The translations under genes were made by a program, and so were the position numbers. Shown in pieces: positions 1,247 through 27,549 of a stretch of 64,000 nucleotides of DNA. Each line of letters opens with the position of its first letter. The stretch's first letter is position 1. The DNA is taken from assembly GCA_036312945.1 (NCBI GenBank), contig JAXJNA010000044.1:4810-68809 (forward strand), read 5' to 3'. The DNA is from Anaerostipes hadrus (GTDB lineage Bacteria > Bacillota > Clostridia > Lachnospirales > Lachnospiraceae). The notes beneath the pieces were generated by a model, which ran no database searches, was not told the DNA's origin, and worked only from the letters and a program-made list of their open reading frames with translations.

Positions 1247-2959
1247 TTAGCTTCTTGCTCTTTCTTCTAATAAAGCTTTTACTTCTGCTTCTGTTTCTAA
1301 CTGCATTACTTCATCAACTAATGCTTTACATTCATCCATTGTCCACAGAGACATTACTTTTCTTGTAGCAAGGATTGCTGTAGCACTTACTGAGAATTCG
1401 TTTAATCCGAATCCTAATAATACTGGTACTAATAATGGATCGCTTGCTGCTTCTCCACACATACCTGCCATGATGTCTTCTTTGTTTGCAGCTGAAATGA
1501 TATTTCTGATAGAACGAAGTACAGCTGGATTGTATGCAGAGTACAGATATGCAACATCTGGGTTACCTCTGTCGGCTGCCATTGTGTATCCAGTTAAATC
1601 GTTTGTACCGATACTGAAGAAGTCTGCTTCTTTTGCAAGAATGTCAGCAATTAAGCTTGCTGCTGCAGTTTCCATCATAACACCAACCTGGATGTCTTTG
1701 TCGTATGCGATACCTTCTGCATCTAATTCCTGTTTCAGTTCTTCGATGATCGCTTTGACTGCACGAAGCTCGTCTACACATGTTACTAATGGTACCATGA
1801 TACGAACTTTACCGAAGGCACTTGCACGTAATAATGCACGAAGCTGTGGTTTGTAAATATCTTCTTTTCTCTGTAAGCAGAAACGTACTGCTCTGAATCC
1901 TAAGAATGGATTCTCTTCTGTTGGAAGTCCAAGATATGGAAGTGCTTTATCTCCACCGATATCCAGTGTACGGATGATCACTGGTTTACCGTCAAGAGTT
2001 TCAGCTACTTTCTTGTATGCTTCAAACTGAGCTTCTTCTGATGGAATCGCATCGCTTTCCATGAATAAGAACTCAGATCTGAATAATCCAACACCTTCTC
2101 CATCACGCTCTAAGACACCTTCTGCTTCGTCTGGTCCACCGATGTTAGCAACCAGTTCCACAACGTGTCCGTCTGCTGTCTGGGATTTCTGTCCAACAAA
2201 CTTCTGAAGGGCAGCTTTCTCTTCTAAGAATTTTGCTTTCTTAGCTTTATATTCTTCTACAACAGATGCTTCAGGATTGATGAATGCTTCTCCTGTTGAT
2301 CCGTCAAGAACAACTTCATCTCCATCGTTCACGATAGAAACGATGTTTTCGATACTAAGAACTGCTGGAATCTCCATAGATCTGCAGATGATCGCAGAGT
2401 GAGATGTCTTACCACCGATCTCTGTTAATACACCCTGAACATTTGCAGGATTGATTCCTGCTGTCATAGATGGTGTTAAATCTTCTGCTACTAAGATTGT
2501 TCCTTCTGGAACTGCACTGATATCTACTTCTTCAATTCCAAGTAAGATCTTAATTAAACGAGTTTTGATGTCGCCTAAGTCAGATGCTCTCTGCTGTGTC
2601 AGTTCATCGTCTGCCATAGCGAAGATCTGTGCGAAGAAATCGCAAGCTTCTTCTACAGCAGCTTCTGCATTGATCTTCTCTCCATCGATCTTAGCTTCGA
2701 TCTGTTCTGAGATCGCTGGATCCTGGATCATCATGATATGACCTTCTAAGATCTCTGCTTCCTGCTCACCAGCAGTTACTTTCATGGATTCAACCATCTT
2801 CTGAGTCTTCTCAATGAAAACTTCAATTGCATCGCTTAAACGTTTTTTCTCTGCTTCTGTATCTTCGATAGACTGTTTTGTGTAATTAAGTTCTTCTTCC
2901 TTAATCTTAACGATCTTACCGATACCGATACCAGCAGATGCTCCTATACCTTTATACAT
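1247..2959 (-). CDS. ptsI: phosphoenolpyruvate-protein phosphotransferase (PTS Enzyme I)
   Basis: 570 aa. Phospho-His region GGKTSHSAIICRSMEIPAV. PEP-utilising C-terminal barrel with FFSIGTNDLTGYTMAADR and MCGEAA. Lies directly downstream of ptsH. Confidence 0.97.
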   Translation of the reverse strand: MYKGIGASAGIGIGKIVKIKEEELNYTKQSIEDTEAEKKRLSDAIEVFIEKTQKMVESMKVTAGEQEAEILEGHIMMIQDPAISEQIEAKIDGEKINAEAAVEEACDFFAQIFAMADDELTQQRASDLGDIKTRLIKILLGIEEVDISAVPEGTILVAEDLTPSMTAGINPANVQGVLTEIGGKTSHSAIICRSMEIPAVLSIENIVSIVNDGDEVVLDGSTGEAFINPEASVVEEYKAKKAKFLEEKAALQKFVGQKSQTADGHVVELVANIGGPDEAEGVLERDGEGVGLFRSEFLFMESDAIPSEEAQFEAYKKVAETLDGKPVIIRTLDIGGDKALPYLGLPTEENPFLGFRAVRFCLQRKEDIYKPQLRALLRASAFGKVRIMVPLVTCVDELRAVKAIIEELKQELDAEGIAYDKDIQVGVMMETAAASLIADILAKEADFFSIGTNDLTGYTMAADRGNPDVAYLYSAYNPAVLRSIRNIISAANKEDIMAGMCGEAASDPLLVPVLLGFGLNEFSVSATAILATRKVMSLWTMDECKALVDEVMQLETEAEVKALLEERARS

Positions 2960-3011
2960 GTTGCCACCCGTCCTTTATCAAATTATATGTTACACTCGTT
3001 ATGAGCAGTGA

Positions 3012-3275
3012 CTATTCACCTAATCCAGATTCGATCAGTTCTGTTGCATGTGCAAGAGCTGCTTCTTCGTCTGGACCTTCACATACTAATTCGATTTCAG
3101 AACCACATTTGATGCAAGCTCCGATGATGTTTAATAAGCTTTTAGCGTTGATCTTTTTATCTTCGAATACGATAGTTACGTCAGATTCGAATTTAGTTAC
3201 GGCTTTCGCTAAAACTCCAGCTGGTCTCATGTGTAATCCCTGTTCGTTTTCAATGACAAATTTCTTTGATACCAT
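3012..3275 (-). CDS. ptsH: phosphocarrier protein HPr
   Basis: 87 aa. His15 context QGLHMRPAG and Ser46 context INAKSLLNIIG. Confidence 0.95.
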   Translation of the reverse strand: MVSKKFVIENEQGLHMRPAGVLAKAVTKFESDVTIVFEDKKINAKSLLNIIGACIKCGSEIELVCEGPDEEAALAHATELIESGLGE

Positions 3276-3365
3276 AATTGTTTCTCCTTCTCACATATAA
3301 AATAATTTTAATTTATCTGGATCTTTAACTGGCTTATCTTTGTACTCATCCAAGTGCAATTCCTT

Positions 3366-3423
3366 AAAAAAGCATAAAAAAAGACCTACTTTAACAAATG
3401 TTCACACTTATTAAATAGGTCTT
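3366..3423 (-). terminator. intrinsic terminator in the ptsH leader (conditional; its 5' arm overlaps the RAT)
   Basis: Minus strand reads AAGACCTA-(27 nt loop)-TAGGTCTT followed by TTTTTTTATGCTTTTTT. Confidence 0.8.
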
Positions 3424-3446
3424 GCCTGCCTCACCAGTCACAATCC
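3417..3446 (-). promoter_or_regulatory. RAT (ribonucleic antiterminator) element of the SacY/LicT class
   Basis: Minus strand GGATTGTGACTGGTGAGGCAGGCAAGACCT matches the remembered RAT consensus GGATTGTTACTG....GCAGGCAAAACCT. Its 3' end (AAGACCT) is also the 5' arm of the terminator, as in sacB and bglP leaders. Confidence 0.8.
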
Positions 3447-3462
3447 AAAATTCGATAACATT

Positions 3463-3491
3463 ATAATATCAAATTTTGCCTTATAAGTCAA
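3463..3491 (-). promoter_or_regulatory. sigma-A-type promoter for the ptsH-ptsI leader
   Basis: Minus strand TTGACT (3486-3491), 17-nt spacer, TATTAT (3463-3468). The predicted start lies about 10 nt upstream of the RAT. Confidence 0.6.
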
Positions 3492-3498
3492 CCTGGTT

Positions 3499-3996
3499 TT
3501 ATGACTGATGCCCCATTTCTAAGATCAGTCTTTTGACATAAATGATCAGATACATCTTCTCATCTGCTGAGAGTTTGCAGTTGTAATGCTGCTCAATATG
3601 TTCCACGATCTTCTGACTGCACACGTAGGCTTCTGGATACTTCTTCTGATTACGTTCATAAAATTCAACATCATCTTCTTCGTCTTCTTCTATCGGGCGT
3701 TTCTTTGATAAGATTTCCGTCTCAAGATATTGTAAATGTGTTGCAAATCTCTGATATGCTGGATGTTCCGTATCTAGCACGATTTCATAAAACTCCTGAA
3801 TGATCGCCATGACTTCTTGTACAAAAGATGATTTGCCGCTAAGGTCCAAGGTAAAAATCTTCTCAATCTTCGTCTTATCTAATTCGTCCCCGGTTTTCTT
3901 GCGAAATCCAATTCCTTTTCCCATCAAAATAACTTCTTTTCCGTTTGAATCAAATGTACTGACCACGTTATTGTTGATTACTTTCTGTATGATCAC
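3499..3996 (-). CDS. BglG/LicT/SacY-family transcription antiterminator, short form (CAT domain plus a single PRD resembling PRD2)
   Basis: 165 aa. The N-terminus MIIQKVINNNVVSTFDSNGKEVILMGKGIGFRKKTGDELDKTKIEKIFTLD is a CAT RNA-binding domain. The remainder is colinear with LicT PRD2: RFATHLQYL resembles RFVTHLKFF, and KLSADEKMYLIIYVKRL resembles KLTSDELLYLTIHIERV. Typical family members are about 280 aa. Confidence 0.85.
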   Translation of the reverse strand: MIIQKVINNNVVSTFDSNGKEVILMGKGIGFRKKTGDELDKTKIEKIFTLDLSGKSSFVQEVMAIIQEFYEIVLDTEHPAYQRFATHLQYLETEILSKKRPIEEDEEDDVEFYERNQKKYPEAYVCSQKIVEHIEQHYNCKLSADEKMYLIIYVKRLILEMGHQS

Positions 3997-4007
3997 TTTC
4001 TCGCCTC

Positions 4008-5246
4008 CTAGATACTTCCAAGAATCTCTTTTGGAATGTATGCTTCTACGTAAATTCCATCATCTCTGTATTCTTCTTTCAAAAGTTGTCCATGACTTCG
4101 GATCAGCTGGATCTTTCCTGCTTCCTGATAGCCATACAGCTTTTCTAAATATAATTTCTGTTTTTGCAGTATTTTCTCGATCTGCTCTAACAACTGATCG
4201 GTTCCTTCGCCATTTTTCCCAGAAATCCTTACCACCGCTTCTGCATTTGGATCTTTTAAGATCTCATCACCATTTAACAGATCGATCTTATTGAATGCTG
4301 TAATGATCGGTGATTCGTTAGCTCCTAACTGCTTTAATGTATCATAGACTGCTTCCATCTGTTTCTCTTTCTGCGGATTGGATGCATCAACTACATGCAG
4401 GATCAGATCACTGTATTTGGCTTCTTCTAATGTACTTTTAAATGCTTCGACCAGATGATGTGGAAGTTTGCGGATAAAACCGACCGTATCCGTCATAAGA
4501 ATTGTCTGCCCGCCGCTTAGATCTAAACTCTTTGTCGTTGGATCAAGGGTTGCAAACAACTGATCTTCTTCATAAACTCCTGCATTGGTAAAATGGTTTA
4601 ATAGTGTTGACTTTCCTGCATTGGTATATCCAACAATACAAACCACTGGCAGGTGATTCTTCTGGCGTTGTTTTCTCTGGACTTCTCTGTGCTTTACAAC
4701 ATCTCTTAACTCTGCTTTTAATCTGGAGATCCTTGTACGGATCAGTCTTCGGTCCATCTCCAGTTTCTTCTCTCCCGGACCTCTGGTTCCGATTCCTCCA
4801 CCTAATCTTGATAAGGCTCTTCCTTGTCCGGTAAGCTTGGATGCTCTGTATTTTAACTGGGCAAGTTCGACTTGGATCTTACCTTCTCTTGTAAATGCTC
4901 TCTTCGCAAAAATATCAAGAATGATCAGTGTTCGATCCATCACTTTGGTATCTAATGCTTCTTCTAAATTGCTGATCTGTGCTGGTGATAATTCGTCATC
5001 ACAGACGATCCCTGTCGCATCAGTTCCGTATAACAAAGCATTGACTTCATCGATCTTACCTTTTCCGATATAAGTTCCTGGATGTGGTGTCTCTCTTACC
5101 TGGATCACCCTTGCTGCAACCTCGGCTCCTGCCGTTTTGACCAGTTCTTCTAACTCATCCAGAGATTCTTCTGCTTCTGTTGTGTCTTGATCAGCAACCG
5201 CGATCAAGATCACTTTCTCTATGATTTCTTTTTTGATTTCTTCCAT
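4008..5246 (-). CDS. hflX: GTPase HflX
   Basis: 412 aa. HflX N-domain, then G1 GYTNAGKSTL, G3 DTVGF and G4 NKID. Confidence 0.95.
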   Translation of the reverse strand: MEEIKKEIIEKVILIAVADQDTTEAEESLDELEELVKTAGAEVAARVIQVRETPHPGTYIGKGKIDEVNALLYGTDATGIVCDDELSPAQISNLEEALDTKVMDRTLIILDIFAKRAFTREGKIQVELAQLKYRASKLTGQGRALSRLGGGIGTRGPGEKKLEMDRRLIRTRISRLKAELRDVVKHREVQRKQRQKNHLPVVCIVGYTNAGKSTLLNHFTNAGVYEEDQLFATLDPTTKSLDLSGGQTILMTDTVGFIRKLPHHLVEAFKSTLEEAKYSDLILHVVDASNPQKEKQMEAVYDTLKQLGANESPIITAFNKIDLLNGDEILKDPNAEAVVRISGKNGEGTDQLLEQIEKILQKQKLYLEKLYGYQEAGKIQLIRSHGQLLKEEYRDDGIYVEAYIPKEILGSI

Positions 5247-5263
5247 AATATATGTTCCTGTAT

Positions 5264-5701
5264 CTATTTTCCTAATTTCCCTAATATCTGTTGGACTGCC
5301 ATGTCAAATGCTTGCTTCTTCGCTGAATCCCTGCCCATCGTCTGATTCATCATTTGACTTTTTTCAATTCTTTCCTGATTCTCTTTATAATATTTGATCA
5401 GGTCCATTCCTATATATTCTTCACATGACCGACAGCTATTCTCCATCTCTTCTTGCGTAACTTCCCATGCATCTACAACTCTGTGATCATCCTTGCTGAC
5501 TGCCAACATTAACGTTACGGGTTCTGTAAATGCATTCGTCTGTGCATAACCCATAGAGATCACTGATTCTCTCCCATATTGCCCTTTAAATACTTTGTAT
5601 ACTTCGGATGTGTATTTTGACCGTTGATTTTGTTTATAAGAATAACAAATAAATACTATTATACAAAATACAATTCCGATTCCTACGGCCAGAATTAACA
5701 T
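5264..5701 (-). CDS. hypothetical membrane-anchored protein
   Basis: 145 aa with an N-terminal TM segment (MLILAVGIGIVFCIIVFICY). It is the first gene of the hflX operon. No family recognised. Confidence 0.6.
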   Translation of the reverse strand: MLILAVGIGIVFCIIVFICYSYKQNQRSKYTSEVYKVFKGQYGRESVISMGYAQTNAFTEPVTLMLAVSKDDHRVVDAWEVTQEEMENSCRSCEEYIGMDLIKYYKENQERIEKSQMMNQTMGRDSAKKQAFDMAVQQILGKLGK

Positions 5702-5777: not shown

Positions 5778-5806
5778 ATTATACAACGATTCTTTTTTTG
5801 TAGCAA
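5778..5806 (-). promoter_or_regulatory. sigma-A-type promoter of the hflX operon
   Basis: Minus strand TTGCTA (5801-5806), 17-nt spacer, TATAAT (5778-5783). Confidence 0.5.
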
Positions 5807-5848
5807 TAAAAAAGATATCAGCTGATCCTAATACCAGCTGATATCTTT
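5806..5848 (-). terminator. intrinsic terminator after the RpiR/SDR-remnant unit
   Basis: Minus strand GATATCAGCTG-(10 nt)-CAGCTGATATC followed by TTTTTT. Confidence 0.7.
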
Positions 5849-6100: not shown

Positions 6101-6949
6101 TTATAATTTTTCTTCTGCAACAGACTGCTCGTGCTGTGCCACATTCTCAAATGAATCCCATTTTGTGGAGAACAGTAATAAGAACAGTGTATCGATCACT
6201 GACATTGCTGCCATTCTTGTGAAACTAACCTGATCATGGAAAATGTGTTCTCTTGTTGCTGTCAGCAAAACATAATCACATAACTCTGCAAGTGGCGATT
6301 TAGATTGATTGGTGATCGCAATTGTTGTTACACCATTATCTTTCACGATCTCTACCATCTTCACAAGTCTTTTGGATGCCCCAGAGGCGGAAATCGCAAA
6401 AAATACATCACCTTTTCTTAGAGTTCTGGAAAATGCTTCCTGACTCTCCCAGATTGTTGAACTGACTGCTTTCAATCCTAACTGGTTGAACTTGTAAGAT
6501 CCATCCAATGCGATCGGGATCGTATCTCCCATCGCAGCGAATTCGATCAGATTGGCATGTATGATCAGATCCACGATCTCTCTTAATTCTTCTGGATTAA
6601 AATTGTGAAACGTCGCTTTGATCTCTTCCACTTTACTGATCATGATATTATTGAGTGATTTGTCCATCTGATCGATATCGATCTCGTTCGATATCACCTG
6701 TTCTTCCTGCTGTCGTTGTTCTCCGGCCAGCTTGATCTTCAACTGATGAAATCCCTTACACCCGATCTTCTTACAAAAACGGATGATCGTTGCCTGGCTT
6801 GCATCACAGTGGGATGCAAGTTCTGATACAGACATCTCAATCGCTTCGGATGGATGACTAATCAGATAATCGGCTACTTTCTTCTCTGCATCATATAAAC
6901 TATCATATGTTGAAAAAATCTGATCTCTAACTAAGATATCACTACTCAT
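6101..6949 (-). CDS. RpiR/MurR-family transcriptional regulator (HTH plus SIS domain)
   Basis: 282 aa. HTH segment SVSELASHCDASQATIIRFCKKIGCKGFHQLK. SIS domain with DVFFAISASGASKRLV. Confidence 0.9.
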   Translation of the reverse strand: MSSDILVRDQIFSTYDSLYDAEKKVADYLISHPSEAIEMSVSELASHCDASQATIIRFCKKIGCKGFHQLKIKLAGEQRQQEEQVISNEIDIDQMDKSLNNIMISKVEEIKATFHNFNPEELREIVDLIIHANLIEFAAMGDTIPIALDGSYKFNQLGLKAVSSTIWESQEAFSRTLRKGDVFFAISASGASKRLVKMVEIVKDNGVTTIAITNQSKSPLAELCDYVLLTATREHIFHDQVSFTRMAAMSVIDTLFLLLFSTKWDSFENVAQHEQSVAEEKL

Positions 6950-6960
6950 ATTACTCCCTT

Positions 6961-8217
6961 CTAAATCTCAGGAGCATTCTGTATGAAATACCTTTCTGCC
7001 TCTGCGCTCCATAAGTTACCATTACGTTCTACGATTGTTTTTAATTCTCTGATATACTTATCATCAGCCTTTTCATCGAATTTGTCAACCTCTGTTAATG
7101 GAAATTTTTTGTGCGTATAAACAATTTTTTTACTTCCTTCAAGTTCTGGTAACGCCTTTGTTGTTTCAACCGCTTGGTCAAGCCCTAATATATGTGTTGC
7201 AATCTTTGCAACATTGACTGTCTTGTTCTCGATCAGTTCAATGGATTGTTTCATATCTTCTGTATTTCCACCACTTGTTCCCACAAAATGTGTAGAATTA
7301 TAATGAATATTATAGAAGTTTACTCTAGATGAAAATTCTTGATCGGCAGGCCCTGAGAAGAAATTCAAACATCCATCGAATGCTAACATTTTAACTCCGT
7401 ATGTCACCATTTCTTCATTTGGTGCAAAGATAAAGACATCATCAAATCCTTTTTCTGAATATTTACGTAGCTCTTTATTGACATCTGCTATATCTCTTGT
7501 ATTGACATATACAAGATCTACACCATTCTTCTTTGCTTCTTCTACTGTGTATAATCTTGCTGCCATATCAATCTTCTTCTGTGTTCTTCCTGTGACAACC
7601 AATGTCTTTGGTTTCTTTGGTCCATGGATCGCAAAGTCAATCGCTAAAAATCCCATTGGCCCTGTTGCACCGAGAAGTGCGATCGCTCCACCTTCTTTAA
7701 TTCCCATCACATGTTCATATGAATACATTTTCTTCATATGATATTGTGCATTAAATGCACCTACGACACATGACAGTGGTTCAACAAGAGATCCTTCAAA
7801 GAAGGAATCTCCGTTGTATTTTAATAGTGAACCATTTTCCATAACCTGATCAGAAAAGATGATCGTTGTGGCATCTCCTCCCATATGATGGAAAGAATAT
7901 CCTGGGGCATAGCCTCTGATATCTCCAATGTTAGGCTGAATGACAAATTTGTCACCTTCCTGATACTGATCTTTCCATTTTTTACCGACCTTTTTGATCG
8001 TTCCGCAAAATTCGTGTCCTAAAATGATCGGATTTTCACTGATATCATCTGGTACTTTTTTGTGTTTTTGTGCCTGGGTGATTGCTTTGTAACTGGACAT
8101 ACACAAACTGTCTGTTACAACTTCTGCCATAATTTCATCATCTTGCATCTCTGGCAGTTCAAATTCATCCAGTCTTAAATCCATTTCTCCGTAAAGTCTT
8201 ACTGCCTTTGTTTTCAT
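6961..8217 (-). CDS. zinc-type medium-chain dehydrogenase, L-sorbose-1-phosphate reductase (SorE)-like
   Basis: 418 aa. GHEFCG motif and Rossmann LLGATGPMGFLAIDFA. Long C-terminal extension. NFYNIHYNSTHFVGTSGGNTEDMK and GSKKIVY are colinear with my recollection of enteric SorE. Confidence 0.7.
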   Translation of the reverse strand: MKTKAVRLYGEMDLRLDEFELPEMQDDEIMAEVVTDSLCMSSYKAITQAQKHKKVPDDISENPIILGHEFCGTIKKVGKKWKDQYQEGDKFVIQPNIGDIRGYAPGYSFHHMGGDATTIIFSDQVMENGSLLKYNGDSFFEGSLVEPLSCVVGAFNAQYHMKKMYSYEHVMGIKEGGAIALLGATGPMGFLAIDFAIHGPKKPKTLVVTGRTQKKIDMAARLYTVEEAKKNGVDLVYVNTRDIADVNKELRKYSEKGFDDVFIFAPNEEMVTYGVKMLAFDGCLNFFSGPADQEFSSRVNFYNIHYNSTHFVGTSGGNTEDMKQSIELIENKTVNVAKIATHILGLDQAVETTKALPELEGSKKIVYTHKKFPLTEVDKFDEKADDKYIRELKTIVERNGNLWSAEAERYFIQNAPEI

Positions 8218-9253: not shown

Positions 9254-11017
9254 TTATTTTGTAATATAGAATCCAGAACTCTTTCGCTGTGTGATATTTC
9301 CACATTTATCGATAAATCTTGCATAGATACTCACTTTTTTGTTCTTCTTTTTATAGGTTATTTTATTCGCTGTTTTCCATCGATATTTGGATGCTTTTTT
9401 GCCTTTTGGCACGACCTTATATTGTGTCTTTGATTTCCCGCTGATTCCATAGGATGCTGAAAATACAAATTTGGCTGACTTTTTGATTTTCTTATTGTAA
9501 GACGTTTTTGTTGACGTTTTCAATGTCTTGATCCCTGATCTGTTAACCTTGATCTTCGTCTTTGTCGGTGCTTTTTTATCTACCGCGATTCCTGAAAGCT
9601 GCATCTCATCTATCCCTGCATCTGTGACAAACCTCACATAGACCCTGCCTATCATGCCGTCTTTGAGCGTTAATGTCGTACCGGTTTTGTATGGTACACT
9701 TCCTTTGGAAGTTCCTTTTTTCACAAATTTATACTGAATTTGTTTTAGATTTGTGAAGCTCTTTGCCTGTGCTGAAATCCTGATCTTGATGTTTTTTCTC
9801 TCATAATGCTGATATGCTGCAGAGGCATCGGAACGAAGTGGTGTCATTTTCTTCTTTGTATTTGCCTGCACTGTAACTTTCTGCATCAAAGGGGTACGCT
9901 TCTGTTTTACCACATATCCCGCATGACTTGGTACATTACCGCCTTTTTGTGCTGACACACTTAGATTCTTACCATCGGACGATACTACGATCGTTCCTTT
10001 ATCTGATGTCTGATAAACATCCATTCCTGACAGATCACGAAGTACATTGCTCTCTGGTGTCTGATTTACATTTTTATACCCATTACTGATGATCGCAATA
10101 CTTGCACCTGTTCGATCGATCAGATACTTATGATCCGAATCGTATACATAACGACCTTTCGGTTTATCCTGCAAGCGAACATCCTGATATCCATGATGCG
10201 GCTGCTTTAATACCTGTGCACTTAAATCGTAACCTCTGGCTGCAATCTTTTTGATCGTTTCCTGCTGTGCATCACCTGTCATTAAAAATGAATTACTGCC
10301 ATAAACGATCCTCGTCACTATTGAATATTTATTTACCTGTCTTGTATTTAAATCTGGTGCATCCTGTGCTCTTCCATATCTATAGGTATTATCTAACGGA
10401 CCATAAAAAGTCATTACCGCTTCGCCTAATTTTACGGATGTTCCGGCCTGTGGCACAACATACTGGATATGCAATGATGCATCTTTGTATGAGTTCCTCT
10501 TCTCTAGTTTCTTCTTGAATGTCTGATACGTCTGTGTATCAAATGCTGTCCATCGGGCTGTTTCTTCTGTTTGCTTTTCTTTATCTTCGCTGCTTTCCAG
10601 ATATTCAAATTCCAATGGATTTCCATAAATCGTATCGATCGTAATATTCTTATCTTCTAGTATCTTTTTCATTCCACCGATATGATCTCCATGTGGATGA
10701 GTAAGAACAACAAATTCCAGATGTTTTACTCCATGATCCAGCAAATACTGGTGCACACGGTCTGATACATCGATCGTATCATGATCTGTTGTCTCATAAG
10801 AATAAGCCCCAGAATCGATCAGGGCATACTTCGCGTTTTCTCCTTCTCCATATTGAAGCAAAGCTCCATCGGCGGCCCCTACGTCGATAAAATGAACCTT
10901 AAATGTCTGTGCTGCATTAACTTTGATCGTTTGATTTCCCGATACGTGCAAAACAGTGATGCCTGTAAGCATCACTGTCAGCAGTACCGCTATGATCTTC
11001 TTTGTAAAATATTTCAT
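9254..11017 (-). CDS. secreted MBL-fold metallo-hydrolase (ComEC/Rec2-type beta-lactamase-like domain) with two C-terminal lysine-rich beta-sandwich repeats
   Basis: 587 aa with a signal peptide (MKYFTKKIIAVLLTVMLTGITVLHVSG). Motifs HFIDVGAADGALL, ALIDSGA, LTHPHGDHIGG (HxHxDH) and MTGDAQ. The C-terminus holds two related modules (..YKFVKKG.., ..YKVVPKGKKASKYRWKT..). Confidence 0.85.
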   Translation of the reverse strand: MKYFTKKIIAVLLTVMLTGITVLHVSGNQTIKVNAAQTFKVHFIDVGAADGALLQYGEGENAKYALIDSGAYSYETTDHDTIDVSDRVHQYLLDHGVKHLEFVVLTHPHGDHIGGMKKILEDKNITIDTIYGNPLEFEYLESSEDKEKQTEETARWTAFDTQTYQTFKKKLEKRNSYKDASLHIQYVVPQAGTSVKLGEAVMTFYGPLDNTYRYGRAQDAPDLNTRQVNKYSIVTRIVYGSNSFLMTGDAQQETIKKIAARGYDLSAQVLKQPHHGYQDVRLQDKPKGRYVYDSDHKYLIDRTGASIAIISNGYKNVNQTPESNVLRDLSGMDVYQTSDKGTIVVSSDGKNLSVSAQKGGNVPSHAGYVVKQKRTPLMQKVTVQANTKKKMTPLRSDASAAYQHYERKNIKIRISAQAKSFTNLKQIQYKFVKKGTSKGSVPYKTGTTLTLKDGMIGRVYVRFVTDAGIDEMQLSGIAVDKKAPTKTKIKVNRSGIKTLKTSTKTSYNKKIKKSAKFVFSASYGISGKSKTQYKVVPKGKKASKYRWKTANKITYKKKNKKVSIYARFIDKCGNITQRKSSGFYITK

Positions 11018-11041: not shown

Positions 11042-12817
11042 TTATTTCTTAGTTACGTAAAATCCATTTGTCTTCTTTGTTGTGATATTTCCAGATTTAT
11101 CAATATATCTTACATATAAACGAACTTTTTTATTTCTTGTCTTATAAGTTACACTATTTCCTGTTTTCCATTTGTACTTGGAAGCTTTTTTTCCTCTTGG
11201 TACAAACTTATACTGTGTCATGGATTTTCCACTGGTTCCATAATTGGCACTAAATGTAAATTTGACAGACTTCTTGATCCGTTTACTGTAAGTGTTCTTT
11301 GCAGATGTTGACAGTGTTTTGATCCCTGACTTATTCGCTTTGATCTTCACACTGGTTGGTGCTTTCGTATCAACTGTAAATCCAGGAAGTTTGATCTCTG
11401 TTGATCCTAATGGTGTATTATATCTTACATAAAACCTTCCACAATTTCCATTTTTGACGGTATAGGAACTTCCTGTCTTATATGCTATGGTTTTATTATT
11501 CACACCTTTTGGCACAAACTTATATTCAATGCTTGTCAACTTTGTAAATCCTTGAGCTGCTCCTGAAAATCTTACAGTGATATTCTTCTTTTCATAACGA
11601 TTATAAGTATTCGCAGCATCCACGCTTGTTGCTGTCAAAGGCTTTGTTGTGTTCGCTGTGATATTCATGGATTTCATCACTGGAGATGATGTTTCATCGT
11701 CACTTTCCTTTCCTTTGACACTTGGCTGGTTATCTCCTTTCTCTGTCTGGATCGATAACTGTGAGCCATCGGATGTTACAATGATCGTTCCACGATCTCC
11801 TGTCTCATAGACGTCTAATTTTGATAAGTCTTTTAAGACTTTTGTATATGGAACACCACCTGTATTCATGTATCCATTACTGATGATCGCAATACTAGCC
11901 TGTGATGCATCGATCACTGTTTTATGATCAGAATACTGGTATCCATTGGCTAATTCTTCTTCTGTGACATCCTGAAATCCATGATGTGGCTCCTTGAGCA
12001 CCTGTGCTGTCAGATCATATCCCTTCGCGATGATCTTCTCGATCGTTTCTTTCTGGGCATCTCCTGTCATTAAGAAAGAGTTGCTTCCGTAAACGATCTT
12101 TGTTACGATAGAATATTTATTTTCCTGTCTTGTATTCAAATCTACTTTACGTCCGTACTGATAGTCATTCTCCAATGGTCCGTAGAATGTCATCTTTGCT
12201 TCTCCGAAGTTGATCGTTTCGCCAGCTGTTGGTACTACATAATCTACTTTTAGATTTTCTTTCTCTGTTTTGTCTTCTGCCTCTTCGGCAAGTTTATTTC
12301 TTGCTTCTAAAGCTGTTTTGAAGTTCTTGTATATTTTGGTATCAAATTCTGTCCAATTTGTTTCATCTGCAGACTGCTTACTCTTATCCTCGCTGCTTTC
12401 TAAGTACTGAATATTCAGATCATTCCCATAAATCTTATCGATCTTGATCGTTGTATCAGAAAGAATCTTCTCCATACCTCCGATATGATCCTGATGAGGA
12501 TGTGTCAGAAGTATAAATTCCAGATGTTTTACTCCCATCTTATTTAAATATTCATAGACTGGTGTCTTTGTTGTGTCAATCGTCGTATCCTTTGTATTAT
12601 GATACTGGTTTGCTCCTGTATCGATCAATGCATACTTTGCTTCTGTTCCTTCTCCATACTGTAATAATGCAGCATCTGCACATCCGACATCAATAAAATG
12701 AATCTTAAATGTCTGTGCTGCTTTTGCCGTATGCATTCCATGCCCGGTTACAACTGTTGTGCAGACCAATATCCATGCCAGAAAGCACACTGCAAGTTTC
12801 CTTATAATGTTCCTCAT
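11042..12817 (-). CDS. secreted MBL-fold metallo-hydrolase, tandem paralogue of 9254..11017
   Basis: 591 aa with the same architecture: signal peptide, HFIDVGCADAALL, LTHPHQDHIGG, MTGDAQ and two C-terminal modules. It is colinear with its neighbour along the full length. Confidence 0.85.
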   Translation of the reverse strand: MRNIIRKLAVCFLAWILVCTTVVTGHGMHTAKAAQTFKIHFIDVGCADAALLQYGEGTEAKYALIDTGANQYHNTKDTTIDTTKTPVYEYLNKMGVKHLEFILLTHPHQDHIGGMEKILSDTTIKIDKIYGNDLNIQYLESSEDKSKQSADETNWTEFDTKIYKNFKTALEARNKLAEEAEDKTEKENLKVDYVVPTAGETINFGEAKMTFYGPLENDYQYGRKVDLNTRQENKYSIVTKIVYGSNSFLMTGDAQKETIEKIIAKGYDLTAQVLKEPHHGFQDVTEEELANGYQYSDHKTVIDASQASIAIISNGYMNTGGVPYTKVLKDLSKLDVYETGDRGTIIVTSDGSQLSIQTEKGDNQPSVKGKESDDETSSPVMKSMNITANTTKPLTATSVDAANTYNRYEKKNITVRFSGAAQGFTKLTSIEYKFVPKGVNNKTIAYKTGSSYTVKNGNCGRFYVRYNTPLGSTEIKLPGFTVDTKAPTSVKIKANKSGIKTLSTSAKNTYSKRIKKSVKFTFSANYGTSGKSMTQYKFVPRGKKASKYKWKTGNSVTYKTRNKKVRLYVRYIDKSGNITTKKTNGFYVTKK

Positions 12818-22737: not shown

Positions 22738-25700
22738 TTATTTGATCTTAAGTTTTATTCTTGCTTTCTTTCCGCTTCCATCGGTTGCCATTGCGGTTAT
22801 GATAACTGTCTTTTTCTTTCCAGCTCTTTGCGCTTTGACTTTTCCTGTCGATGAAACTGTTGCATATCTTGTATTACTTGATGTCCACAACAGCTTCTTA
22901 TTTGCTCCTTTGGATGCCTTGATCTTTGCTTTTAATTTTAATGTTTTTCCTACCTTGACTGTTTTCTTTCCTTTGATGGAAATCTTCTTCACGATTCCTT
23001 TCATAACTTTGATCCCAAAAGTTGCTTTTTTACCGCTTCCATCATTGGCAGCTGCAGTAATCGTTACTGTCTTTTTGCCCGTCTTCTTCTTGATCGTTAC
23101 CTTTCCTTTGGCATCTACCGTTGCGATCTTTGGATTGCTTGACTTCCATGTAATCTTTTGATTCGATGCCTGTTTAGGCAAAATATCGGCTGTCAGCAAG
23201 ATTTTTGTTCCGGCTGCGATCTTATGAGAAATACCCTTGATCGAAATCTTTGTGATTTTCTTTGTATTTCCTGATCCTGAAGGCTTTTGTCCTGAATCAT
23301 TTGCTGCATCCGATGGTTTTGTCGTTCCTGGATTCGTTGTTCCCGATCCTGTAGTATTTGTACTTCCAATTTGGAAGTTTTTCTTCATGCTGCCTGTATA
23401 ACGATTCTTTCCTGTGATAATGACAACCGCAGTTCCAGCATTGATATTATTCTGATATTTTACATCATAATCAACACCTTTGATCAACTGCAATTCTCCT
23501 CTTTTCACCGTAACTTCTGGTGTTTTTGCTGTTCCATCTGGTGTATATCTTTCATTTTCAAGGATCACCGTACAGTCTGAAATATTATTTTCTCCTGGAA
23601 GTTCCCATCGATATACAACACCATAATAGCAATCATTCTGTGAATTGCTGTCTTTGTCATCGGCTGTAACCTGCATACTGCAATAGGCATTCTGTGATGC
23701 GTCAAATTTCATATCCTTCGTCTTATATTCTACTGAAATTTCACTGCTTTCCCCTGCTTTTACGGTCTTGATCTCCTTTGTTTCCTGCTTGTTTGATAAC
23801 TGGTTATCTGCATAGATATTCAGATTTCCAGAAGTATCGATCTGGCCTTCATTTTTAATCGTTACGGTATATTTTACCCCATCTTTTACAATCTCTTTTT
23901 TCACATCTGATATCGCAAGATCACAGTAAGATACTTCCTTCTTTAACTGCGTATTGGTGGTATCAGTCTGTCCATCGGCAACTGTCTGAACGGTAAAGTT
24001 CTCAATCTTAGACAGATTATCAAACGTAAATGTGTCTTCAAAAAATGCGGACTCTCCAGGAAGAAGATTACAAGATACTTCTTTCTGTAAGATCGTTCCA
24101 TCATCGTTACTAACCTTTAACTCAAAACTTTTCAATGTTTCTTCGCTGTTATTTGTGACAGTATAGGAAATCGGCTGTTTCCCTTTCTCTGTCATTGCTT
24201 CACTGTCAAGGATCATATCATTGATCTCAAGTTTGGGTTCTAATTTTTTATGTAAATGATACATGCTCGTTTTTTCGCTGTCTTGCAAGTCCGTTGCACT
24301 AAATACGATATCCCATGTTCCATCGTCATCCATGACAGCTGTGAAGTTATTTCCTGATACTCCTGATTTCGTATATAGGTTGACTGGTTTGCTATATCCA
24401 TTTTCTGTTTTTACGGAAGAATAGAAATTACATCCTGTTGTATCATTTTCCATCCAGATCACCACATCTTTATTTCCGTTGCTTACCTGAACTGCATTCG
24501 CTCCAGTAAATGGCTGATCGGAATTTGTTATTTCCTGTGACTCTTCTTTATTGATATCATAGGATTTTAAAACCCCGTCCTCAAGGTATGTCACTTCATC
24601 AGGATTTGCACTAAGATTGGAAATATTATGATCCCCATCTGTCAATTGCTTCATTCCATCATTATTAGAACGGTTCATGTAATATAATTTTGTCTTTTGT
24701 TCCTCATCTATTCCCACATAAAACGCTTGATACGTACCATTATTTTTTGAATAGGTACCTTTTAATTCTGAAATATATGCATTCGTCTTTTGAAGTGGTG
24801 CAATTCCAATATTCCATGCTCCATGGACACATTCCGTAGTCATGATCGTTTTTTCACATTGAGATGTTAATGGATTCTTTAATTCCATTCCAATCCACAT
24901 AAACGCAGCCGTTCCATCTTTATCAATCACCTGAGGCATGATATTGGCTCTGTTTTTGCTTACAATTTTACGCTTAACTTCAAAAGATCTCGTTGACGGA
25001 TCATATTGGCTGATGTAAATACCACTTGCAGATATCATAGATTTTATCTGTTCTTCTGCACTGCCACTTTCAATCGTTGTATTACATTTCTGCCATGCTA
25101 CAAAAACATCATCGCCAACCTGCTTAATATCTGCAAATGTATCTAAAGTTCCATCATCCAAAAAGGCTTCTGGCTGTGACCAGCTTCCATTATGATAGAC
25201 AGAATACATTAATTTTACACTGTTTTGCGTTTTCCTCGCTGCATCGTTTGACTGGAAGATCATAATGAGATCGTCTTTATATTTTACCATCTTTGGCATC
25301 GTATTTGGCAAGATATAGCTTTGCAGTTCTTTTACGGAAACCACTGTATTCGCTACTGCTCTTGCCTTCATTTTTGCAGTATTTCCGTTCCATGCACTTG
25401 TTTTACTCTGATACGATCTGTCTGTCAGCGTAAGCTGACTGCTTCTTTTCATTGCCTTTGTCTTTGCTCCATACGTACTTGTCTCTGAAGCACTTTTCTC
25501 TTTTTTGGAAGTTGTATCCCACAATGGAATCGTTACTTTTGCCAATGTATACGAGCCGTCAAATACAAACATAATCTTTGCTTTCACTGATGCACTTCCA
25601 CTCAACGTTCCAACGGTCCATGGAAGCAGCTGCCAATCTAAAGAGGCATCTCCTGATACTCCTAAAGTTGCCACGCCACTGACTCCAACACCTGCCCCAA

Positions 25701-27501: not shown

Positions 27502-27549
27502 CTGTTCCCTCCTTTTTTTCATACTATTTTTTCATAAAAATATGATTTT

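What the first reader, a model, noticed from the sequence alone, without database searches (positions are those of the whole stretch)
3366..3996. PRD1-less CAT-PRD2 mini-antiterminator with a canonical RAT/terminator guarding ptsH-ptsI
The 165-aa protein has a textbook CAT RNA-binding domain. It then continues directly into a segment colinear with PRD2 of LicT: RFATHLQYL resembles RFVTHLKFF, and KLSADEKMYLIIYVKRL resembles KLTSDELLYLTIHIERV. The whole PRD1, the domain that EIIB sugar permeases phosphorylate to switch these regulators off, is absent. The first PRD2 histidine is kept, but the second (TIHIE in LicT) is a tyrosine here. Immediately downstream lie a promoter (TTGACT-17-TATTAT), a RAT (GGATTGTGACTGGTGAGGCAGGCAAGACCT) and a terminator, and the RAT 3' end is the terminator's 5' arm. 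ptsH and ptsI follow. The general PTS proteins therefore appear to be under antitermination by a regulator whose only remaining regulatory module is the one normally phosphorylated by HPr itself. That would be a sugar-independent HPr-to-ptsHI feedback loop. The arrangement I know from B. subtilis is a full two-PRD GlcT acting on a ptsG RAT, with ptsHI read through. A dedicated ptsHI RAT with a single-PRD regulator is not something I recognise as described.
Basis: partly seen in the sequence, partly recalled or inferred. Interest (0 to 1): 0.68.

Follow-up and report, generated by a model that had tools for sequence, protein, structure and literature searches.

The report
PRD1-less antiterminator guarding ptsH-ptsI
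The gut bacterium Anaerostipes hadrus controls the two general sugar-uptake (PTS) genes with an RNA-binding anti-termination switch whose regulator has lost the sugar-sensing half of its control module, a natural stripped-down variant I could not find described.

Summary
On the minus strand the order is hflX, a 165-aa CAT+PRD gene (3996..3499), an extended -10 promoter, a RAT (3446..3418), an overlapping terminator, then ptsH and ptsI. The single PRD is PRD2. It scores 84.7 bits on a PRD2 profile and gives no hit on a PRD1 profile, and it aligns to LicT residues 176-274. H87 corresponds to LicT His207 and Y153 to His269.

It is not a broken gene. All 16 Anaerostipes species sampled have the same short gene, RAT, terminator and ptsHI, and dN/dS for the PRD is about 0.03.

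The closest full-length relatives (Candidatus Scybalomonas, CAT-PRD1-PRD2) also sit directly upstream of a RAT, a terminator and ptsHI, and they already carry the Tyr. So dedicated ptsHI antitermination and the His-to-Tyr change are both older than the loss of PRD1. Also, a second short form (P0122) nests inside that full-length clade, which points to an independent PRD1 loss.

The mechanism is inferred, not shown: HPr~P phosphorylates H87, the protein dimerises, binds the RAT and allows read-through. The sign of control and the phosphate donor are untested. I rate it a new variant of a known kind, with moderate to high interest.

The parts
4008..5246 (-). hflX (GTPase). Its stop codon lies 11 nt upstream of the antiterminator start, so the two are probably co-transcribed.
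   Evidence: Pfam GTP-bdg_N, GTP-bdg_M and MMR_HSR1. The same tight hflX-antiterminator spacing is seen in all 16 Anaerostipes loci. An upstream promoter (5806..5778) and terminator (5848..5811) were found.
3499..3996 (-). 165-aa PRD1-less antiterminator: CAT RNA-binding domain (residues 1-51), a short linker, then a PRD2-type domain (residues 57-160). H87 corresponds to LicT His207 and Y153 to LicT His269.
   Evidence: The AF2 model has pLDDT 87.6, with 4 strands and 5 helices. Foldseek gives rmsd 1.8 A to LicT CAT (1l1c) and 1.7 A over 101 columns to LicT PRD (1h99). dN/dS is 0.017 for CAT and 0.034 for the PRD.
3463..3491 (-). ptsHI promoter: TTGACT, 17-nt spacer, TG-extended TATTAT.
   Evidence: A TTGAC(T/A)-17-TANNAT element with an upstream TG lies at the same place in all 16 Anaerostipes loci.
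3418..3446 (-). RAT (ribonucleic antiterminator) hairpin, beginning about 10 nt after the predicted transcription start.
   Evidence: Unique in the window, with 0 matches expected by chance. All stem positions are identical in 19 Anaerostipes and Scybalomonas leaders. Variation is confined to the apical loop and one internal-loop base. The RAT alone folds with only -5.1 kcal/mol.
3374..3423 (-). Intrinsic terminator: hairpin 3423..3381 plus a T-run. Its 5' arm (AAGACC, 3423..3418) is the 3' end of the RAT, so the two structures exclude each other.
   Evidence: dG -21 kcal/mol; z-score of the leader -3.4. Every orthologous leader folds into a terminator of -20 to -34 kcal/mol that starts at the same AAGACC, although the stem sequences differ.
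3012..3275 (-). ptsH (HPr, 87 aa, with His15 and Ser46 present).
   Evidence: Pfam PTS-HPr, E 3.2e-29. The sequence was read.
1247..2959 (-). ptsI (Enzyme I, 570 aa).
   Evidence: Pfam PEP-utilisers_N, PEP-utilizers and PEP-utilizers_C.

Best explanation
This is a natural, genus-wide PRD1-less member of the BglG/LicT antiterminator family in Anaerostipes hadrus. It controls transcription of the general PTS genes ptsH-ptsI.

What the sequence shows: transcription starts at a strong extended -10 promoter. About 10 nt into the leader the RAT is transcribed. Unless the RAT is held as a hairpin, the overlapping and far more stable terminator forms and transcription stops before ptsH.

What is inferred by homology: a dimer of the CAT domain binds and stabilises the RAT and allows read-through into ptsHI.

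What is inferred about regulation: PRD1, which sugar-specific EIIB permeases phosphorylate to switch these regulators off, is gone. PRD2 now sits directly behind CAT, so activity should depend only on the PRD2 module. The most likely control is phosphorylation of the one remaining site, His87 (LicT His207, BglG His208), by HPr~P. This would favour PRD2 dimerisation and therefore the RNA-binding CAT dimer. ptsHI expression would then follow the phosphorylation state of HPr itself. It would be high when HPr~P accumulates and low when PTS flux or HPr-Ser46 phosphorylation drains HPr~P, whichever sugar is present.

Evolution: the regulator descends from a full-length ptsHI-dedicated antiterminator of the kind still found in Candidatus Scybalomonas, by a clean in-frame loss of about 124 residues.
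For: Domain identity and the absence of PRD1.

RAT, terminator and promoter anatomy and their mutual exclusion.

Conservation of hflX-mini-promoter-RAT-terminator-ptsH-ptsI in 16 of 16 Anaerostipes species, with protein identity down to 69%.

Purifying selection on the PRD (dN/dS about 0.03, similar to CAT), so the PRD is not a decaying remnant.

H87 and Y153 are invariant in all orthologues.

Full-length relatives with the same Tyr lie upstream of a RAT, a terminator and ptsHI in L033, L035, L037, L039 and L109. The Tyr clade has 93% bootstrap support.

Established knowledge: LicT is activated by HPr phosphorylation of PRD2 His207 and His269, and PRD1 is the site of negative control by EII (as summarised in PMC5393181). 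From memory: BglG is activated through His208 (Rothe et al. 2012). Also from memory: in GlcT domain-rearrangement experiments HPr could target a PRD placed at the C terminus and the output followed that domain's own dimerisation behaviour, the case tested being PRD1 under negative control (Himmel et al. 2012). That paper could not be retrieved.
Against: Nothing here shows phosphorylation, RNA binding or termination; all of these are inferred from homology.

LicT needs both PRD2 histidines for full activation, and one of them is Tyr here. The module may therefore have become independent of HPr, as GlcT and SacY largely are.

A regulator of ptsH that itself needs HPr~P has a bootstrapping problem, and its logic (less PTS when flux is high) is the opposite of glucose induction of ptsGHI in B. 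subtilis.

The RAT belongs to the generic LicT/SacT class. An identical 30-mer lies upstream of a ROK-family kinase gene in a beta-glucoside-type PTS cluster in another organism. Full-length antiterminators elsewhere in the genome could therefore also act on this leader.
Confidence: 0.5

Rival explanations
1. Constitutive mini-antiterminator. PRD2 with Tyr153 serves only as a dimerisation scaffold for CAT and is not controlled by phosphorylation. Read-through into ptsHI is then set by how much regulator is made from the hflX operon, which would link PTS capacity to growth or ribosome status rather than to HPr~P.
For: The second phosphorylatable His is replaced by Tyr throughout the ptsHI-linked clade. 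LicT needs both His for full activation (PMC5393181). Regulators of general PTS genes such as GlcT do not require PRD2 phosphorylation (from memory, Schmalisch et al. 2003). The gene sits 11 nt behind hflX in every Anaerostipes locus. PRD1 was lost twice in this clade, which suggests the clade depends little on PTS input.
Against: H87 and its RFxTHL motif are invariant, and the PRD is under selection as strong as on CAT. A pure scaffold would tolerate more change at the phosphorylation site. Retaining a costly RAT/terminator switch across 16 species argues for conditional control.
Confidence: 0.27
2. Negative, demand-driven control. HPr~P (or EI~P, or any EIIB~P) phosphorylates H87 and inactivates the protein, because the PRD now occupies the position next to CAT that PRD1 normally holds. 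PTS flux with any sugar drains the phosphate, the unphosphorylated protein binds the RAT, and more HPr and EI are made. This would be a sugar-generic version of the GlcT logic.
For: It gives the physiologically familiar outcome, in which PTS sugars induce ptsHI, as in B. subtilis ptsGHI and E. coli ptsHI (established knowledge). The whole-protein structural matches are to CAT-PRD1 constructs 6twr and 3rio, so the PRD occupies the PRD1 position. HPr can exert negative control on a PRD in rearranged GlcT variants (Himmel et al. 2012, from memory).
Against: By sequence the domain is clearly PRD2. In the characterised family members PRD2 phosphorylation promotes dimerisation and activity. In the Himmel experiments the negative output followed PRD1 identity, not position (from memory).
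Confidence: 0.13
3. The RAT is served mainly by a full-length, sugar-responsive antiterminator encoded elsewhere in the genome. The short protein would be a competitor, a heterodimer partner or a relic with little role of its own.
For: The RAT is of the generic LicT/SacT class, and identical or near-identical RATs precede EIIBC genes in other organisms. The related short protein P0122 has no RAT or ptsHI within 10 kb.
Against: The gene and the RAT are adjacent in 16 of 16 species, and the full-length relatives occupy the same position next to ptsHI. dN/dS of 0.02-0.03 excludes a relic. No second RAT or antiterminator lies in the 64-kb window.
Confidence: 0.07

Closest known systems
LicT (B. 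subtilis) and BglG (E. coli): the BglG/SacY family of PRD-containing antiterminators
   Same: The CAT domain is 54-55% identical to LicT CAT and superposes at 1.8 A rmsd. PRD2 is about 30% identical, superposes at 1.7 A and is collinear with LicT 176-274. The RAT is of the LicT/SacT class and overlaps an intrinsic terminator. The first PRD2 His (His207/His208) is conserved.
   Different: There is no PRD1, so no site for EIIB-mediated, sugar-specific negative control. The second PRD2 His is Tyr. The target is ptsH-ptsI, not a sugar-specific EII or hydrolase operon.
GlcT with the ptsGHI operon (B. subtilis, Staphylococcus)
   Same: A CAT-type antiterminator and RAT influence expression of the general PTS genes (established knowledge).
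   Different: GlcT has two PRDs. Its RAT precedes ptsG, with ptsHI only read through and also served by their own promoter. Control is glucose-specific through EII-Glc acting on PRD1. Here the RAT directly precedes ptsH and no EII gene is in the operon. The NCBIfam GlcT model matches only the CAT part well.
Full-length ptsHI-linked antiterminators of Candidatus Scybalomonas (P0121, P0068, P0058, P0262, P0263 and others); I found no paper that mentions them
   Same: They are the nearest relatives, at 45-49% identity and 93% bootstrap support for the joint clade. They share the Tyr at the second PRD2 site and the acidic DDDEFY loop. They have the same layout of antiterminator, RAT, terminator, ptsH and ptsI, with hflX nearby in L035.
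   Different: They keep a complete PRD1 with both histidines and are 283-298 aa long.
Engineered truncations: SacY(1-55), LicT CAT, LicT CAT-PRD1 (PDB 6twr) and GlcT CAT-PRD1 (PDB 3rio)
   Same: All consist of a CAT domain followed by at most one PRD. The CAT-PRD1 constructs are the best whole-chain structural matches.
   Different: Those are laboratory constructs and they keep PRD1. This is a natural protein that keeps PRD2.

Membership tests
BglG/SacY (LicT) family of RNA-binding antiterminators | N-terminal CAT (co-antiterminator) RNA-binding domain | tested here: met
   Pfam CAT_RBD residues 1-51, E 2.7e-24, above the curated cut-off. 54% identity and 1.8 A rmsd to LicT CAT 1l1c.
BglG/SacY (LicT) family of RNA-binding antiterminators | [quoted passage not shown] | tested here: not met
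   Only one PRD is present. It is of the PRD2 type: 84.7 bits against PRD2 and no hit against PRD1. LicT residues 52-175 have no counterpart. None of the NCBIfam equivalog models (LicT, GlcT, BglG, LacT) reaches its cut-off.
BglG/SacY (LicT) family of RNA-binding antiterminators | Two conserved phosphorylatable histidines in PRD2 (LicT His207 and His269) | tested here: not met
   H87 corresponds to His207 and is present. Position 269 is Tyr153, invariant in all orthologues and in the full-length Scybalomonas relatives.
BglG/SacY (LicT) family of RNA-binding antiterminators | A cognate RAT in the leader of the target operon that overlaps an intrinsic terminator | tested here: met
   The RAT at 3446..3418 overlaps the terminator at 3423..3381 by 6 nt. 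This is conserved in 19 leaders. Rfam has no match here, so there was no curated model to score against.
BglG/SacY (LicT) family of RNA-binding antiterminators | RAT binding and PTS-dependent phosphorylation demonstrated | not testable with these tools
   This requires EMSA or ITC with the RAT RNA and in-vitro phosphorylation with EI, HPr and PEP.
GlcT-type control of the general PTS genes | The RAT precedes ptsG (EII-Glc), with ptsHI downstream in the same operon and a two-PRD GlcT regulator | tested here: not met
   No EII gene lies between the RAT and ptsH. The regulator has one PRD. The GlcT equivalog scores 89 bits against a cut-off of 320.

The most novel reading that the evidence does not exclude
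The Anaerostipes protein is a minimal, EII-independent sensor of the HPr~P/HPr ratio. A single PRD2 with one phosphorylatable histidine, fused directly to CAT, would be enough to switch RNA binding. That would give the general PTS an autoregulatory loop in which HPr controls synthesis of HPr and EI, with no sugar-specific input. PRD1 was lost twice independently in the ptsHI-linked Tyr clade, which would mean this simplification is selected for rather than accidental.
Probability: 0.4. Interest if true: 0.72.

Novelty: new variant of a known kind. Interest (0 to 1): 0.6.

Why it matters
PRD antiterminators are the textbook case of two-input control, with a sugar-specific EII acting on PRD1 and general HPr acting on PRD2. 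A natural protein that keeps only the HPr-facing module, with only one of its two histidines, is a ready-made minimal system. It could show how PRD2 phosphorylation is transmitted to the CAT dimer, which has so far been studied only with engineered truncations.

It also shows that in one group of Lachnospiraceae the general PTS proteins have their own RAT/terminator switch, separate from any EII gene. This arrangement is not in the reviews I could search.

Anaerostipes hadrus is an abundant butyrate producer of the human gut. How it sets its overall PTS capacity bears on how it competes for sugars.

Tried and rejected
- **Rfam.** Neither a permissive scan of 2900-4100 nor a gathering-threshold scan of the whole window gave a relevant hit.
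- **Covariation in the RAT and terminator.** RNAalifold on 19 leaders recovered only the RAT. All its pairs are invariant, so covariation is uninformative, and the terminator was misaligned because of indels. I relied on per-sequence folds instead.
- **Frameshift or fragment hypothesis.** Rejected. The longer 99%-identical database entries P0001 and P0003 are hflX read-through fusions, and P0041 and P0062 are chimeric assemblies. None contains PRD1.
- **The PRD is really PRD1.** Rejected.
- **A single shared PRD1 deletion for Anaerostipes and P0122.** Rejected by bootstrap, with 0% support for that grouping and 99% for P0122 grouping with the full-length Scybalomonas proteins. The linker junctions also differ.
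- **CcpA cre site in the leader.** None was found in the window with the strict consensus.
- **Other RATs in the window.** None.
- **RAT-to-ptsH arrangements in other taxa.** Only Anaerostipes and one Scybalomonas locus (L109) had ptsH downstream. Most of the others preceded genes with EIIB/EIIC-type N-termini (judged from the first residues only) or antiterminator genes; a few first ORFs were not classified.
- **Himmel et al. 2012 (GlcT domain rearrangements).** The paper could not be retrieved, so it is cited from memory only.
- **Biopython bootstrap.** The first attempt timed out and was redone with my own neighbour-joining code.
Full report
**1. What is in the sequence**

All elements lie on the minus strand of the window. 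hflX spans 5246..4008. Eleven nucleotides after its stop, behind an AGGAGG ribosome-binding site, a 165-codon ORF (3996..3499, GTG start) begins. Pfam finds a CAT RNA-binding domain at residues 1-51 (E 2.7e-24) and exactly one PRD at residues 60-156 (E 7.9e-12). The next two genes are ptsH (3275..3012; HPr with His15 and Ser46) and ptsI (2959..1247; Enzyme I).

Three control elements lie between the regulator gene and ptsH.
- A promoter, TTGACT-17-TATTAT with a TG extended -10, at 3491..3463.
- The RAT GGATTGTGACTGGTGAGGCAGGCAAGACC at 3446..3418. It occurs once in the window, and none is expected by chance.
- A hairpin at 3423..3381 followed by a T-run, with dG about -21 kcal/mol. The leader z-score is -3.4.

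The first six bases of the terminator stem (AAGACC) are the last six bases of the RAT, so the two structures exclude each other. The RAT on its own is weak (-5.1 kcal/mol). This is the classical situation in which a bound protein must stabilise the RAT.

**2. Which PRD is it?**

Four independent comparisons all identify PRD2.
- phmmer against the PDB aligns residues 57-158 with the PRD2 half of LicT (1tlv, 1h99).
- The NCBIfam models for LicT, BglG and LacT align the domain to their positions 177-273, 172-274 and 192-282. None reaches its equivalog cut-off.
- BLASTP against a 277-aa LicT orthologue (P0294) aligns query 1-51 with LicT 1-51 and query 56-158 with LicT 176-274. LicT residues 52-175 have no counterpart. 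H87 corresponds to His207 and Y153 to His269.
- I built PRD1 and PRD2 profiles from 106 full-length relatives. The protein scores 84.7 bits on PRD2 over nearly the whole profile and gives no reportable hit on PRD1. Full-length controls score about 110 bits on each profile in the right place.

An AlphaFold2 model (pLDDT 87.6) shows four strands followed by five helices. Foldseek superposes the N-terminal part on LicT CAT (1l1c) at 1.8 A and the helical part on LicT PRD (1h99) at 1.7 A over 101 columns. The best whole-chain matches are the engineered CAT-PRD1 constructs 6twr and 3rio, because they too are a CAT plus one PRD.

**3. It is a real, conserved gene, not a fragment**

A cluster member identical in all but length is named Anaerostipes hadrus and is found on at least 1000 contigs, the tool's counting limit. 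A scan of one genome per species found the short gene (160-175 aa, 69-92% identity) in 16 Anaerostipes-type genomes. In all 16 the order is hflX, short regulator, promoter, RAT, terminator, ptsH, ptsI. One locus, L015, has about 300 nt of extra DNA before the promoter.

Nei-Gojobori dN/dS among these orthologues is 0.017 for CAT and 0.034 for the PRD, against 0.30 for the acidic loop at residues 95-111. dS is close to saturation, so these values are rough. H87 and Y153 are invariant.

Database entries of 194 and 286 aa at 99% identity are fusions with the hflX C-terminus, and two others are chimeric assemblies. None carries PRD1.

**4. Conservation of the leader**

Across 19 distinct leaders (15 Anaerostipes, 4 Scybalomonas) every paired RAT position is identical. 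Variation is confined to the apical loop (GTGAGG, GTAAGG, GTAATG, GTAGTG, GTTCGG and others) and one internal-loop base (G/T). From memory of the LicT-RAT structure, the protein contacts the internal loops and not the apical loop.

Terminator stems differ widely in sequence and length, yet each folds to between -20 and -34 kcal/mol. Each starts at the same AAGACC of the RAT. RNAalifold could not align the terminators because of indels, so I give no formal covariation statistic.

**5. Where it came from**

An exhaustive search of cluster representatives found 2310 relatives, nearly all about 280 aa long. The closest full-length ones form a small group (P0121, P0260, P0068, P0072, P0074, P0261, P0058, P0262-P0264; 283-298 aa). 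Database sources name them Candidatus Scybalomonas or Lachnospiraceae.

They have a complete PRD1 with both histidines. Their PRD2 has RF(I/V)THLKYL and MYLTVY(I/V)KR, that is, the same Tyr at the second site and the same acidic DDDEFY loop.

In every locus examined (L033, L035, L037, L039, plus L109 from the RAT scan) the gene lies directly upstream of a RAT (GGATTGTTACTGG....GCAGGCAAGACCT), an overlapping terminator, ptsH and ptsI. In L035 hflX lies about 4 kb upstream.

So a dedicated ptsHI antitermination switch and the His-to-Tyr change both predate the loss of PRD1. In a neighbour-joining bootstrap on CAT plus PRD2 (300 replicates), the Anaerostipes short proteins form a clade in 100% of replicates. 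The joint Tyr clade is recovered in 93%.

**6. A second, independent loss of PRD1**

P0122 (168 aa, 7 cluster members) is also CAT plus PRD2 with the Tyr. It groups with the Scybalomonas full-length proteins in 99% of replicates and with the Anaerostipes proteins in 0%. It is 55-59% identical to the former and 41% to the latter. Its linker keeps more of the PRD1-PRD2 connector.

It also follows hflX, but no RAT or ptsHI lies within 10 kb downstream, so its target is unknown. Two further short CAT-PRD2 proteins (P0191, P0259; both His kept) and a PRD1/PRD2 chimera (P0203) are singletons on contigs under 1 kb for P0191 and P0259 (the contig of P0203 was not looked up). I give them little weight.

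**7. How specific is the RAT?**

About half are Anaerostipes ptsH leaders and one is Scybalomonas. Most of the rest precede genes with EIIB/EIIC-type N-termini (judged from the first residues only) or antiterminator genes, and a few first ORFs were not classified. They include an AT-rich glcT-ptsG-like locus and a beta-glucoside cluster whose RAT is identical to the window's over 30 nt.

The RAT is therefore of the generic LicT/SacT class. Cross-talk with full-length antiterminators encoded elsewhere in the A. hadrus genome cannot be excluded with the data available. The window itself holds no other RAT or CAT gene.

**8. Mechanism**

What is shown: the anatomy (promoter, RAT overlapping a terminator, ptsHI downstream, a CAT protein adjacent), its conservation, and purifying selection on both domains.

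What is inferred from the family: a CAT dimer binds the RAT and prevents the terminator from forming.

What is inferred, with less certainty: how activity is set. In LicT, PRD1 is the EII-dependent off-switch, and HPr phosphorylation of PRD2 His207 and His269 is the on-switch that drives dimer closure (summarised in PMC5393181). Here PRD1 is absent, PRD2 is fused to CAT through a linker of about 5 residues, and only the His207 equivalent remains.

My preferred reading (confidence about 0.5) is that HPr~P phosphorylates H87, PRD2 dimerises and CAT becomes competent. ptsHI expression would then track HPr~P whichever sugar is present.

The main rival (about 0.27) is that the Tyr clade has become phosphorylation-independent. 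In that case the amount of regulator, made from the hflX operon, would set read-through.

A negative, demand-driven version (about 0.13) would give the familiar induction by PTS sugars. It conflicts with the PRD2 identity of the domain.

A trans-acting full-length antiterminator with the short protein as a bystander (about 0.07) is disfavoured by the strict gene-RAT adjacency and the selection data.

**9. Comparison with what is known, and novelty**

The protein works like a BglG/LicT antiterminator, but it fails two defining features of the family: two tandem PRDs, and two histidines in PRD2. I file it as a variant of that family.

It differs from GlcT/ptsGHI in that no EII gene is involved and the RAT directly precedes ptsH.

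Eight full-text literature searches found no description of a ptsHI-dedicated RAT or of a natural single-PRD antiterminator. These included a check of a 2025 review of RNA-binding antiterminators (PMC12591593) and a review of clostridial sugar uptake (PMC4706839). The library lacks most subscription journals, so this is absence of evidence only.

Verdict: a new variant of a known kind, with interest about 0.6.

Noticed in passing
L027-L030 and L160 (gene at 4001-4507 in L027, 4324-4830 in L160): P0122/P0389 is a 168-aa CAT-PRD2 protein with the same Tyr, nested within the full-length Scybalomonas clade (99% bootstrap). It follows TPR-hflX as in the window, but no RAT or ptsHI lies within 10 kb downstream. 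It looks like an orphan short antiterminator from an apparently independent PRD1 loss.
   Followed up: partly
L015, 4481-4850: In one Anaerostipes MAG (STE_13), about 300 nt of extra DNA separates the regulator's stop codon from the ptsH promoter and RAT. All other loci have the promoter immediately after the stop.
   Followed up: no
L055, 309-338, 422-451 and 1472-1501: A 2-kb gut contig (GC 33.6%) carries two RATs 113 nt apart ahead of a ROK-family kinase gene, and a third ahead of an EIIBC gene. One of them is identical over 30 nt to the window's RAT. Tandem RATs in one leader are unusual.
   Followed up: no
protein P0203 (152 aa): This is a CAT domain followed by a chimeric PRD. Its N-terminal half scores as PRD1 (64.5 bits) and its C-terminal half as PRD2 (38.6 bits), as if a deletion had fused the two PRDs mid-domain.
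   Followed up: partly
window 5264-5701 (-) and 5778-5848 (-): A 145-aa ORF with no Pfam match lies just upstream of hflX. It is preceded by a terminator-like hairpin (5848..5811) and a promoter-like site (5806..5778). This is probably the start of the operon that also contains hflX and the mini-antiterminator.
   Followed up: partly
window 9254-11017 (-) and 11042-12817 (-): Two adjacent ORFs of about 590 aa both match the metallo-beta-lactamase fold. They look like a tandem duplication.
   Followed up: no
window 22738-27522 (-): A 1594-aa protein has DUF6273 and Big_2 domains. A DUF6273 protein also lies just downstream of the orphan short antiterminator in L027 and L160, which hints at deeper shared synteny.
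   Followed up: no
window 6101-8217 (-): An RpiR/SIS regulator and a Zn-dependent dehydrogenase sit between the TPR gene and the hflX operon. In the P0122 loci, TPR and hflX are directly adjacent.
   Followed up: no
proteins P0001, P0003, P0041, P0062: These metagenome-derived 'longer variants' at 98-100% identity to the window protein are hflX read-through fusions or chimeric assemblies (one fuses HPr to the PRD C-terminus). They could mislead a length-based survey.
   Followed up: yes
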